From Cycas panzhihuaensis (Eukaryota > Plantae > Cycadophyta), in the NCBI GenBank assembly GCA_023213395.1, contig CM041465.1, forward strand, positions 126,797,741 to 126,861,740: DNA of 64,000 bases, in the 5' to 3' direction. Positions 55,300 through 58,873 of this stretch are shown here, one piece after another. The number at the start of each line of letters is the position of its first letter. The stretch's first letter is position 1. The notes under the pieces are model-generated. The model saw only the letters and a list, made by a program, of their open reading frames with translations. It was not told where the DNA came from and made no database searches. The position numbers and the translations under genes were made by a program.

Positions 55300-56500
55300 T
55301 CTTAAATGCTCAAGTTTAGTAGCTTCAAAGTTGTACTAAACAATGTCAGAATATGGTGAAATTACACCAAATTGAATATCAATAAAAAAAACTTTTCAAT
55401 AGAACTGACCGTTTTGAAAACGAGTTCCTACAAGTCAATATTTTAATGAACAAAAGATACAATCCTCTTTTTGAGGCTTAATGGGAGCCTAGGGCTCAAA
55501 ATATTATAAAAATGCTAGTAAAAAATTTATAGAGTGATAAAAAAGATCAAATATAGTTTAGAGAGTTGCTTAATATATTTTCAGTTAAAAAATTTAAAAA
55601 AATAATATATGTAAATATGCAATAATGATAAATTGGAGGCTATTATGTACTTCAACTTTGATGGCTTTAAAAATCTACAAAAACACTCTAAAACTTATAA
55701 ATAATAGTTTTATTTCGAAGAGGAGTGAGTCAACTTCCCAACGAAACTAATAGATCTAAATTCTAATGTAAAACATAACAGTTATAATAGAAATGGTAGC
55801 AAGTACTTTTATATTAAAATATTTAAAAACGCTAAAGTGTCACTTTCACCTATTAAAATAATGATTAAAATAAATACTAAAAAATAAAATGAATAGATGG
55901 TGATAAAGTTTGCTGATAATAGATAACTGCAGAATGGATCCAGGTAGAAAATAATCTACCGGTGACAAAATATAATTTAATAAAAAAAGGATTTTGTGAA
56001 AATAGTTTAAAATAACTTTAAAAATCAACAAGCGACTTTAAATAGGACATATGACTAGTTGAAATTATACCTCAGAAAATTTTAAACTCAATGGGATAGG
56101 TTTCATCAGAAACTGATAACCCAGTGAAGAGATATAGGAAAAAATAACTAAGTACCTTATGTTTTTAAAATAATTTTTAAAAAAATAAAAAATAAAATGT
56201 TATATCCTTAAGATAACCCCCTTAGATTATCAACCTAATGGTAGACTGGGCAGGGATTGAACCCAAGACCTCACAAAAGATAAACCCCTATGATTCTAAG
56301 AGGGTGAACTCGCTCATCAAATTTAAAATACAAGAAATTTTTATATGAAATAAGGGGTCCCTTAATCACTTAATATAAATAGATTTGAAACTTTATGCAA
56401 TTTAATTTTATTGAAATAAACTTTATAAGAGATATGTGAGTCAAAAATGTCATCATTGACTTTGTTACACAGAGAATACAAGGTGTGAACAATCGCTAGA
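55300..56500 (-). other. Retroelement non-coding leader resembling the copia C leader (22500-23400)
   Basis: Shared motifs such as cgttttc.aaacggt..ttg.aaag.ttttt and ttataaagtttattt in opposite orientation. Confidence 0.5.
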
Positions 56501-57062
56501 ATCGATTGAATCACGCCTGACTGATTGGAGATAGGTCACAAGGAGGACACCTTTGAACAAAACAAAAAGGAAAATAAAATTTCATAAAACCCAGATATAT
56601 TTACGTTCATAACATTGAAGTGATGCAATGTTGAGGATAAGCATCCAACTTGCAACTTCTTTATTACATATGGTGGTAGACAGTGCCGCCAATCAGATAA
56701 ACATGCATGGAAGATAACACTTCAATCGATAGTATGGCAGATGAATTGATTAAAATTGAGCACCCTCGATAATATAATGTATGACGTCAAATTTTGGCTA
56801 ATATCTTAGGTTTCTAGAAGATCCCCATGTTGTTGACAATTAGAGGTGAGAAACTGGCATTGCTATTTGGATTGTCGATCCTTTAACGATTGTAGAAGAA
56901 CAAGTTATTCTTATATCTTCAAAGGAGGATGATATTCAATTACGGTCAATAGTAGAAAATGCTCTTTTACATGCAGCAACAATCTTATTTAACATAGGGG
57001 AATAATTAGATGGAAGAATCAGGGGGGAAAGATGGTTCTATATGAATGCCCTGAGTGAAACG

Positions 57063-57161
57063 ATGGCGAATTCTCCTGGAGGAGATGTGGAGATTCTGTG
57101 CAAGACTCTTCAGGTCAAACATAAGCTCTTTTATTTCAATCTCAAGGAAAACCTGAAGGGG
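57063..57161 (+). pseudogene. PURA1: Pur-alpha-1 N-terminal fragment
   Basis: MANSPGGDVEILCKTLQVKHKLFYFNLKENLKG versus plant Pur-alpha DVELVSKTLQVEHKLFYFDLKENPRG. Confidence 0.9.
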
Positions 57162-57688
57162 GAAGAATGGTGGATGAAAGGCATTCGTAGTGCCAGTGCC
57201 TAGCGATTTGGGTTTGAGAGTCAACAAACATGTCCTTGTTCCTGTATTAAAGGATTAAATTGTAACTATAACCAGTGTCTTATTAGAATAACAATGGCTC
57301 ATTTACTGGGGAAAGGTTTTGATGGGGATGCCTTCATGCAACATGTGACTATCTTGCACTGTTTTCACACACAATGATGGATATCACACACATGATGCCA
57401 CCAGGGTTTAAAAAAAAAAGAAAATCTAAATTGAGTATTAGACCTACTGACAAAGCAATCGATGAACTACTAATGATATCATATGCTTCACCTATATTTT
57501 ATGAATCAAATTCAAGGGTTCAAATAAAATGGCAATCGTCATTGTTAGGGAAGAATTAGTAAGAACTACCAAGTGATATCGTGTGTTTTGCCTATAAAAT
57601 ACCTTCGTTTTGAGGTTAAGGCTTAGCGTAGGAAAGAGGTGAAGGTGAGCTTACTAATTAGTCATTATCCTTTTAACAGGAAAGATTC

Positions 57689-57931
57689 ATGTCAGATCCA
57701 GACGTTTAGATTCCTAGGGCCTTTGATCCATTCATGAAGGGAAATGCTGAAGATTCAGGTGCTGGATCCAAGGAATATGTTCATGTGCGCATACAATAGC
57801 GTAACGATGGAGAGAGTCTAACAACAGTGCAGGGCTTAAAGAAAGAGTTTAGTTTCAATAAGATTCTTAAATACTTGAAGAAAGAATTTTGTTATAATGG
57901 GACTGTTGTCCAAGATCCTAAGCTGGGTTAA
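57689..57931 (+). pseudogene. SUI1: Translation initiation factor eIF1/SUI1 fragment (first ~81 codons)
   Basis: MSDPDV*IPRAFDPFMKGNAEDSGAGSKEYVHVRIQ*RNDGESLTTVQGLKKEFSFNKILKYLKKEFCYNGTVVQDPKLG*; C-terminus missing. Confidence 0.95.
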
Positions 57932-58039
57932 GTAGAAACATCATGCAGGGGGAGCGAGAGGATTAGAGATGTGTTAGAAGATTATTTAGAAGAATTGCAT
58001 GTTAAACATATAATTTGCAAGAATTAAAAATAAAAAGGA

Positions 58040-58120
58040 AAGGTTGTTAACGATGTGGTAGTAAGGGTGCCATGTTATTTTGGGCAGGCAAAGATAATTA
58101 GTGTGCTCAATGCAGCTCAA
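58040..58120 (+). pseudogene. HSP70-17/Grp170 (HYOU1)-like fragment
   Basis: KVVNDVVVRVPCYFGQAKIISVLNAAQ resembles VKDVVISVPPYFGQAERRGLIQASQ; the match is short. Confidence 0.65.
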
Positions 58121-58488
58121 AGTAGCTTTATAAGGGAGAATACCAAATACCAGGCTCGGGGAAATGGGTGTACGACAGTTTTGGCCAAGGCAATTGGATC
58201 GAGGTATTATAGTTATTTTTCAATGAATCAACTTAAATAAAGGGTGATAAAAGTGGTCTTAAGCCCCCAAAACAACCAAAGCCATAAAAATACAAATAAT
58301 ATATACTGTAGTGAGTGAAATTATCACAACACCAAAAAGGTTTAAAAATAGAAACAAGTATTGGAGACATAAGAAGATAATATAGTGACACAATAGAGCC
58401 ACAAACAAAATAAAAAAAAAAATCAAATAGAATAGAGAAATATATACATAATCGAAAAAATTCTAAATATAACAGAGAAATATACATG

Positions 58489-58603
58489 TATATATATATA
58501 TATATATATATATATATATATATATATATATATATATATATATATATATATATATATATATATATATATATATATATATTTATTTATTTATTTATTTATT
58601 TAT
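58489..58603. repeat. (TA)n ~45 units followed by a (TTTA)n microsatellite
   Basis: Directly visible in the sequence. Confidence 0.98.
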
Positions 58604-58821
58604 GAATATAATGTACAAAGAACCTAGTAATATCACCGTGACAAATTCACAAAAGATGATTTCAGAGTGTGAGAACGTCTTGATCAATGGTCAAAACTCT
58701 AAACCGTGTTCTCTAGTAGACATGTGAGTTTGCTAGGATTCTAACAAGCAGACATATGTAACTATTCTGCTAGATGTATGAGAAGCTAGATTAATATGAA
58801 TAAATATCAAACATCTCTTTG

Positions 58822-58873
58822 GCTTTGATACCAAATGTAGGAAAATATACATGCCCAAATGACTCTGATACCA
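58822..58873 (-). promoter_or_regulatory. Two tandem tRNA-Met PBS motifs
   Basis: gctttgatacca 58822-58833 and actctgatacca 58862-58873, each followed by aa-TG. Confidence 0.85.

What the first reader, a model, noticed from the sequence alone, without database searches (positions are those of the whole stretch)
56500..58873. Second cargo cassette (Pur-alpha, eIF1, HSP70-17-like) in the same architectural slot, all antisense to the element
Seen: three unrelated housekeeping fragments plus unidentified coding-like patches lie between a minus-strand PBS (58822) and a retro leader (55300-56500). All identified pieces are on the plus strand, so an element transcript would be antisense to them. Inference: with the first cassette, this suggests a recurring LTR-PBS-[host fragments]-leader design. 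Such cargo might dampen silencing, because siRNAs against it would also hit essential host genes, or it might produce trans-acting small RNAs.
Basis: partly seen in the sequence, partly recalled or inferred. Interest (0 to 1): 0.8.

Follow-up and report, generated by a model that had tools for sequence, protein, structure and literature searches.

The report
Backward gene scraps in Copia leader
An old, broken plant jumping gene carries at least five back-to-front scraps of host genes in its front untranslated region, likely copied from messenger RNAs by slips of its reverse transcriptase; gene capture is common in plants, but the backward orientation would point to a little-described capture route rather than to a shield against silencing.

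Summary
The cassette holds five short pieces that match host transcripts: Pur-alpha, eIF1, an HSP70, a ubiquitin-like domain and one unnamed (KH-like by recall). The carrier is a 5.2-kb non-autonomous Ty1/copia element, 55290-60523, with a perfect target-site duplication (GTAAG), a gag remnant, a polypurine tract and LTRs 91% alike. Its 5' part (about 55300-59203: LTR, two PBS, cargo, leader) is inverted, so gag lies right of the PBS. That part is colinear with an intact copia in the same window, so the (TA)n is not a mis-join and the cargo is antisense to LTR-PBS-leader. Related species hold sister copies that share the flanks but not the middle block, and donor divergence varies (6-16%), so cargo likely accreted stepwise. 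The eIF1 piece starts at the mRNA 5' end and seems spliced, which points to RNA-templated capture, likely during plus-strand synthesis (inferred). The 'all-antisense design' and silencing-shield ideas are weak: the first cassette has mixed orientation, and 44 of 49 C/T or G/A differences are deamination in the cargo. Verdict: a new variant of known LTR-mediated gene capture.

The parts
55285..55289 (.). Left target-site duplication GTAAG
   Evidence: Identical to 60524-60528; GTAAG plus LTR start occurs exactly once in the window
55290..55299 (+). Stub of the 5' LTR (TGTTGGG..) and left inversion breakpoint
   Evidence: Same first 7 nt as the 3' LTR at 60193; 7-8 nt inverted microhomology with 59196-59203
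55300..56201 (-). Distal 5' leader of the copia element (inverted)
   Evidence: Matches the leader 22654-23388 of the intact copia; homology stops at 55308
56230..56330 (-). High-copy motif with a tRNA B-box-like word (SINE-like, inferred)
   Evidence: Summed contig depth about 2000 in bin 56260-56328 versus about 5 per single contig in 3 of 3 DNA runs; B-box recalled
56482..56542 (+). Possible further donor piece (unnamed)
   Evidence: One DNA contig with a loose end before 56482 and one behind 56542 (table 7); not followed up
56850..56990 (+). Host mRNA piece, KH-domain-like by recall only
   Evidence: 1897-nt RNA contig, 16 differences in 141 nt; no hit; strand inferred from the stop-free + frame
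57028..57153 (+). Pur-alpha 5' piece
   Evidence: E 3e-8; 1289-nt RNA contig, 7 differences in 126 nt
57213..57322 (+). Ubiquitin-like domain piece from a long transcript
   Evidence: PF00240, E 0.007; 2735-nt RNA contig, 17 differences in 110 nt
57587..57928 (+). eIF1/SUI1 5' UTR plus about 80 codons, starting at the 5' end of the mRNA contig
   Evidence: SUI1 E 1e-10; 657-nt RNA contig laid on 57596-57928, 29 differences, 2 gaps; its 9 loose 5' letters differ from 57587-57595 only by C>T/G>A (by eye)
58046..58119 (+). HSP70-family piece (HSP70-17-like by recall)
   Evidence: PF00012 E 0.022; 3468-nt RNA contig, 12 differences in 74 nt
58480..58603 (.). (TA)n/(ATTT)n microsatellite inside the leader
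58683..58802 (-). PBS-proximal leader block
   Evidence: 71 of 120 identical to 21813-21932 of the intact copia; 0 of 200 shuffles; 5 of 5 control comparisons not significant
58820..58833 (-). Second (inner) tRNA-iMet PBS
   Evidence: PBS consensus recalled
58836..58859 (-). 24-nt spacer ending like an LTR (..CCTACA), likely a relic of another element's U5
   Evidence: unique in the window; origin inferred
58860..58873 (-). LTR-adjacent tRNA-iMet PBS
58876..59203 (-). Body of the 5' LTR (inverted)
   Evidence: 91% reverse-complement match to 60196-60523; K2P 0.099
59204..59475 (+). Rest of the leader, right of the inversion
   Evidence: Position before gag; 28 of 33 match to 23434-23466 of the intact copia, not significant alone (25 of 200 shuffles)
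59555..59752 (+). Copia gag remnant; no pol follows
   Evidence: PF14223, E 1e-4; 75 of 118 identical to gag of the intact copia
60182..60192 (+). Polypurine tract
60193..60523 (+). 3' LTR, TG...CA
60524..60528 (.). Right target-site duplication GTAAG

Best explanation
This is a decayed non-autonomous Ty1/copia retrotransposon whose 5' leader holds five or more antisense pieces of host genes, likely copied from co-packaged mRNAs when reverse transcriptase jumped onto them during plus-strand synthesis. Shown: the element bounds, the target-site duplication, the internal inversion, the cargo position between two conserved leader blocks, the donor transcripts, and sister copies with different slot content. 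Inferred: the RNA origin (about 0.7), stepwise accretion in a lineage mobilised in trans (about 0.7), and the plus-strand stage as the cause of the orientation (about 0.45). A jump onto an mRNA during minus-strand synthesis gives sense inserts; a jump while the element's own sense strand is being made gives antisense inserts. The cargo is likely a neutral passenger, methylated and decaying. The inversion of the 5' part likely arose separately through a 7-8 nt inverted microhomology.
For: Element: TSD, LTR stub and the point where homology ends coincide (chance about 3e-6 in a 100-nt interval). LTR, post-PBS block and leader are colinear with the intact copia. RNA origin: the eIF1 piece begins at the 5' end of the mRNA contig, where one DNA contig diverges (57586). 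It is colinear with the mRNA across the 5' UTR. The DNA contigs of one run that cover its start codon reach no further left than an AG at 57635 (read from tables 3, 7, 8). Soybean EIF1 has a 5' UTR intron (PMC9590564, passages). All 5 of 5 pieces lie in the 5' third of their transcripts. Stepwise: in 3 of 3 DNA runs a contig starts matching at 57961-57967 with unlike sequence before it, and one contig leaves the window sequence after 56861. Donor divergence is heterogeneous (p 0.039). The tandem PBS with an LTR-like spacer suggests faulty plus-strand transfer in this lineage. Multi-gene capture by template switching is known (PMC5131818, passages).
Against: Capture at the PBS itself would put the youngest piece nearest the PBS. 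Here the cargo starts about 600 nt inside, and the PBS-nearest piece (HSP70) is among the most diverged and is shared with sister copies. Three pieces (KH-like, ubiquitin-like, HSP70) give no evidence on splicing, and the ubiquitin-like piece lies within one exon in DNA contigs. The host's own eIF1 gene structure was not seen. None of the DNA contigs over 57665 shows the 2-nt gap of the mRNA contig, so they may be paralogues or other captured copies rather than the donor. Junction microhomology could not be tested. The four middle pieces may have entered as one block, so orientation may rest on two or three events. The first cassette holds one sense piece. RNA contigs are unstranded and come from a related organism.
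Confidence: 0.45

Rival explanations
1. Pieces of cDNA or genomic DNA were patched into breaks in the leader in either orientation. Sense inserts were then purged because they add start codons, splice sites or poly(A) signals ahead of gag.
For: Mixed orientation in the first cassette. Mid-exon ends and unassigned spacers: only 784 of 1749 nt match listed RNA contigs. First and second exons are preferred in TE capture generally (PMC13477047, section 12).
Against: The eIF1 piece starts at the transcript 5' end and seems spliced, which rules against plain genomic DNA for that piece. A non-autonomous element has little need to protect gag translation (inference).
Confidence: 0.25
2. The mosaic was built in sense orientation by ordinary minus-strand template switching (Bs1/Tan type), here or in another element, and was later flipped or inserted backwards as one or two blocks.
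For: Transduced pieces are usually sense (PMC7264820, part 1 of 3 read). This element has undergone a microhomology-linked inversion. The middle block is absent from some sister contigs as a unit.
Against: Both the older shared HSP70 piece and the middle block are antisense, which needs two flips or a flip before further gains. No inverted-junction signature was seen at the cassette edges, though this was not tested with donor sequence.
Confidence: 0.2
3. The antisense cargo is functional: it dampens silencing of the element or yields trans-acting small RNAs against essential genes.
For: Cargo is less CpG/CHG-depleted than the window. The maize conflict model found slightly lower methylation on capturing TEs (10.1101/777037, abstract and section 15). 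About 25% of 24-nt windows of the Pur-alpha piece would still match perfectly (estimate).
Against: 44 versus 5 polar deamination changes. Cargo-spanning contigs are low-depth while the flanks are more repeated. No methylation advantage in a conifer (PMC13477047, section 12). No copy-number gain in maize (10.1101/777037, section 15). Only 1-2% of 24-mers would be intact for the HSP70 and ubiquitin-like pieces.
Confidence: 0.08
4. The cassette is a nested Pack-type DNA transposon or Helitron, or an assembly chimera at the (TA)n.
For: Multi-gene short 5' fragments are typical of Helitrons and Pack-MULEs (10.1101/777037, section 5).
Against: No terminal inverted repeats around the cassette among the listed repeats. 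Sister contigs bridge the leader-cargo junction. The TSD and colinearity span the (TA)n.
Confidence: 0.04

Closest known systems
LTR-mediated retroposition by template switching (Tan et al. 2016, PMC5131818, passages read; maize Bs1 as cited there and in PMC13317346, passages read)
   Same: Partial mRNA pieces of several unrelated genes inside a non-autonomous LTR element that went on replicating; pieces shared among copies.
   Different: There the retrocopy replaces internal ORF sequence, is mostly transcribed in sense and has junction microsimilarity. Here the pieces are antisense, sit in the 5' leader between conserved blocks, are 74-340 nt long, and microhomology was untestable.
TE-captured exon fragments in gymnosperm genomes (PMC13477047, passages and section 12 read)
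   Same: Old capture, first/second exon preference, copia carriers, no methylation advantage; about 400,000 fragments per genome.
   Different: Only about 14% of carriers hold two or more pieces, while this one holds five or more. The words 'orientation' and 'antisense' do not occur in that paper's main text; its supplements were not read.
Antisense additional ORFs of plant LTR elements (Grande, RIRE2, Retand; PMC7264820, part 1 of 3 read)
   Same: Antisense extra sequence inside an LTR element.
   Different: Those are conserved element-specific ORFs between pol and the 3' LTR with no host donor; these are decayed host-gene scraps in the 5' leader.
Pack-MULE, Helitron and Sirevirus capture with epigenetic conflict in maize (10.1101/777037; abstract, sections 5 and 15 read)
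   Same: Multiple donor fragments that could cross-talk through siRNAs.
   Different: The carrier here is a copia leader with no DNA-transposon termini; cross-talk was not testable.

Membership tests
Ty1/copia LTR retrotransposon (non-autonomous) | Two LTRs, TG...CA | tested here: met
   91% alike; the 5' one is split by an inversion into a stub at 55290 and a body at 58876-59203
Ty1/copia LTR retrotransposon (non-autonomous) | 5-bp target-site duplication | tested here: met
   GTAAG at 55285 and 60524
Ty1/copia LTR retrotransposon (non-autonomous) | PBS after the 5' LTR and PPT before the 3' LTR | tested here: met
Ty1/copia LTR retrotransposon (non-autonomous) | Copia-type gag or homology to an autonomous copia | tested here: met
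   PF14223 E 1e-4; colinear with 21273-29411, which has gag, integrase and RVT_2 in copia order
Ty1/copia LTR retrotransposon (non-autonomous) | Lineage (Angela, SIRE, Gymco and others) | not testable with these tools
   No lineage reference set was available
LTR-mediated retrocopy (Bs1/Tan type) | Partial mRNA pieces of one or more genes flanked by LTR-element sequence | tested here: met
   Five RNA contigs with sharp ends
LTR-mediated retrocopy (Bs1/Tan type) | Intron loss | tested here: inconclusive
   The eIF1 piece is colinear with mRNA over the 5' UTR; the donor gene itself was not seen (PMC9590564)
LTR-mediated retrocopy (Bs1/Tan type) | Microsimilarity at switch points | not testable with these tools
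   Needs both parental sequences at each junction
LTR-mediated retrocopy (Bs1/Tan type) | Sense orientation to the element (usual outcome of minus-strand switching) | tested here: not met
   4 of 4 tool-named pieces are antisense to LTR-PBS-leader
Pack-MULE / Pack-CACTA / Helitron | Terminal inverted repeats or Helitron termini around the cargo | tested here: not met
   No such repeat among those listed; Helitron hairpin ends were not searched specifically

The most novel reading that the evidence does not exclude
A family of long-leader copia elements in this plant has a dedicated capture slot in its 5' leader, filled repeatedly by reverse-transcriptase jumps onto host mRNAs during plus-strand synthesis. 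Its genomic RNA is then antisense to many housekeeping mRNAs at once: a second, strand-reversed route of LTR gene capture and a built-in source of host-targeting double-stranded RNA.
Probability: 0.3. Interest if true: 0.75.

Novelty: new variant of a known kind. Interest (0 to 1): 0.5.

Why it matters
Gene capture by LTR elements is known and is abundant in gymnosperms, so the cassette as such is not surprising. The orientation and position are the open point. The standard template-switch model predicts sense inserts. A real antisense bias in copia leaders would show capture at the plus-strand stage, or a strong filter on leader content. It would also make the TE-gene epigenetic-conflict question directly testable, because the element's own transcript could pair with donor mRNAs. 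The TSD-bounded inversion also shows how LTR finders can miss such elements, since the LTRs now appear as inverted repeats.

Tried and rejected
No whole genome was held, so no genome-wide scan was possible. No RNA holder was listed for the stretch; this says nothing on expression. The early idea that the PBS and the left leader belong to different elements, with a gypsy-like gag left of 55300, was rejected. Homology stops at the TSD, and 50560-55300 shows no match to the window's copia gag or pol and no Pfam or protein hit in the parts scanned. A CACTA transposase reading of 57213-57322 was rejected: that frame had no Pfam hit, and the ubiquitin frame matches. Attempts to name 56850-56990 failed (the Atlas was unavailable). 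A 600-aa frame search returned 1 protein, an out-of-frame reading of the eIF1 region. One metagenome scan found 0 matches. PBS-adjacent controls at 1166, 50197 and 14576 gave 0 hits in 18 of 18 frames. The slot of the intact copia gave one weak coiled-coil hit in 6 frames and 0 of 3 PDB searches. These blanks are weak, because Pfam also missed the Pur-alpha piece. The first cassette's carrier is not clearly related to this one (6 of 100 and 2 of 100 shuffles). An extension of eIF1 homology beyond 57933 was not convincing by eye. The leader-to-PBS link in sister copies was not examined with reads: only 56260-58300 was laid. Literature searches found no report of antisense leader capture at the plus-strand stage; subscription journals are mostly not covered and no supplements were read.

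Full report
Setting. The window is AT-rich, CpG-depleted plant DNA made of nested, decayed LTR elements. No whole genome was held.

Cargo. Six-frame translation and searches named four pieces, all on +: Pur-alpha (E 3e-8), eIF1 (E 1e-10), a ubiquitin-like domain (E 0.007) and an HSP70 piece (E 0.022). The last two are below Pfam cut-offs. Contigs of 4 public runs (3 DNA, 1 probable RNA, related organisms) were laid on 56260-58300 at 80% likeness. Five long RNA contigs match with sharp ends: 56850-56990 (16 differences in 141 nt), 57028-57153 (7 in 126), 57213-57322 (17 in 110), 57596-57928 (29 in 333) and 58046-58119 (12 in 74). Together they cover 784 of 1749 nt. The first could not be named by tools; KH-like is my recall. 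Taking + as sense, all five lie in the 5' third of their transcripts.

Carrier. The LTR next to the PBS (58876-59203) is the reverse complement of 60196-60523 at 91%. The latter follows a copia gag remnant and a polypurine tract. An intact plus-strand copia at 21273-29411 (twin LTRs 291 of 357 identical; gag, integrase and RT) served as reference. Read on the minus strand, three blocks match it in order: the LTR, the block 58802-58683 (71 of 120) and the leader 56201-55308 (458 of 707 for 56028-55308). Each had 0 of 200 shuffles reaching the score. Leader homology ends at 55308. Just beyond lies GTAAG followed by TGTTGGG, the same 5-mer that follows the 3' LTR and the same 7-mer that starts it. 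The element therefore runs 55290-60523 with a perfect TSD, and about 55300-59203 is inverted, with a 7-8 nt inverted microhomology at both breakpoints. It has no pol. The TSD and the colinearity both span the (TA)n, so a mis-join is unlikely. The cargo occupies a variable slot (about 2.5 kb here, 0.7 kb in the reference) and is antisense to LTR-PBS-leader. Two PBS copies flank a 24-nt spacer that ends like an LTR. LTR divergence is K2P 0.099.

History. DNA contigs at 86-97% identity bridge the leader-cargo junction and the eIF1-HSP70 junction. In 3 of 3 DNA runs a contig begins to match at 57961-57967 with unlike sequence before it, and one contig departs after 56861. So sister copies share both flanks and the HSP70 piece but not the middle block. 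Donor divergence differs among pieces (5.6-16%, p 0.039). Both observations fit stepwise gain in a replicating lineage, with the caveat that the transcripts come from a related organism and may be paralogues. Of 68 places where the RNA contigs differ, 44 are window A/T against donor G/C and 5 are the reverse. The cargo is thus the derived copy and has decayed as methylated DNA.

RNA or DNA origin. The eIF1 piece starts at the 5' end of the mRNA contig: the 9 loose letters differ only by C>T/G>A (by eye), and one DNA contig diverges just upstream, at 57586. It is colinear with the mRNA through the 5' UTR, which in soybean carries an intron (PMC9590564, passages). In one run the DNA contigs over the start codon reach left only to an AG at 57635 (read from table 3). 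Against this, the donor gene was not seen, those DNA contigs lack a 2-nt gap that the mRNA has, and the other pieces are uninformative. I put RNA origin at about 0.7.

Mechanism. In the template-switch model RT leaves the element RNA for a co-packaged mRNA and returns (PMC5131818, passages), and transduced pieces are usually sense (PMC7264820). From established retroelement biology, a jump made while the plus strand is synthesised would insert the complement instead. The tandem PBS hints at faulty plus-strand transfer in this lineage. The difficulty is that the cargo starts about 600 nt inside the PBS and the PBS-nearest piece is old, so capture exactly at the transfer step does not fit. I commit to plus-strand-stage capture at 0.45. 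The rivals are orientation-neutral patching plus purging of sense inserts (0.25) and sense capture followed by block inversion (0.2).

Recurrence and function. The first cassette has a PPR piece on + (E 9e-9) and a thiamine-pyrophosphate-enzyme piece on - (E 8e-12). In the window 5 of 6 tool-named pieces are antisense (p 0.11), and they are not independent. Three other PBS-adjacent regions gave no Pfam hit, a weak blank. Two unchecked notes on other windows of this genome describe host-gene mosaics in copia leaders, one of them antisense; they are leads only. A shielding role is doubtful. The decay is polar, cargo-spanning contigs are low-depth, a conifer study found no methylation advantage (PMC13477047, section 12), and the maize study found no copy-number gain (10.1101/777037, section 15). 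The milder CpG/CHG depletion of the cargo is the one point for it.

Verdict. The element is a member of Ty1/copia by all four features tested. It works like LTR-mediated retroposition but fails the usual sense orientation, so it is filed as a new variant. Searches found no description of antisense leader capture; supplements of PMC13477047 were not read and may bear on this. Interest 0.5.

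Noticed in passing
window 5150-6358: First cassette: PPR piece on + directly abutting a minus PBS, and a thiamine-pyrophosphate-enzyme (pyruvate-decarboxylase-like) piece on -, so orientation is mixed. Its carrier is not clearly related to this element.
   Followed up: partly
window 21273-29411: Intact plus-strand copia with twin LTRs, a decayed TSD-like pair (AAATT/GAATC) and a solo-LTR-like insert at 24224-24701. Its slot 21932-22654 has coding-like minus-strand patches that could not be named.
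   Followed up: partly
window 56230-56330: High-copy motif with a B-box-like word, depth about 400 times that of single contigs in 3 of 3 DNA runs; possibly a SINE remnant.
   Followed up: no
window 57364-57501: Low-depth RNA contig coverage and an open + frame suggest a sixth short donor piece; it is not listed in the cut table.
   Followed up: no
window 51567-52937, 33414-34786, 62189-62435: Three copies of a decayed minus-strand ORF of unknown family, no Pfam name; one copy adjoins a 450-nt direct repeat pair (31573-32030, 34781-35221).
   Followed up: partly
window 53000-55200: Coding-like minus-strand region outside the element, with a zinc-knuckle-like motif near 53050 (by eye); no hits.
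   Followed up: partly
window 14807-15035: Diverged relative (about 65%) of this element's LTR.
   Followed up: no
window 58876-60523: After the inversion the two LTRs form a 328-nt inverted repeat 992 nt apart; read-through transcription would give a hairpin RNA against the LTR family (inferred).
   Followed up: no
window 14071-14373: 51-nt tandem array, 5.8 copies, in the leader behind the PBS-like site at 14576.
   Followed up: no
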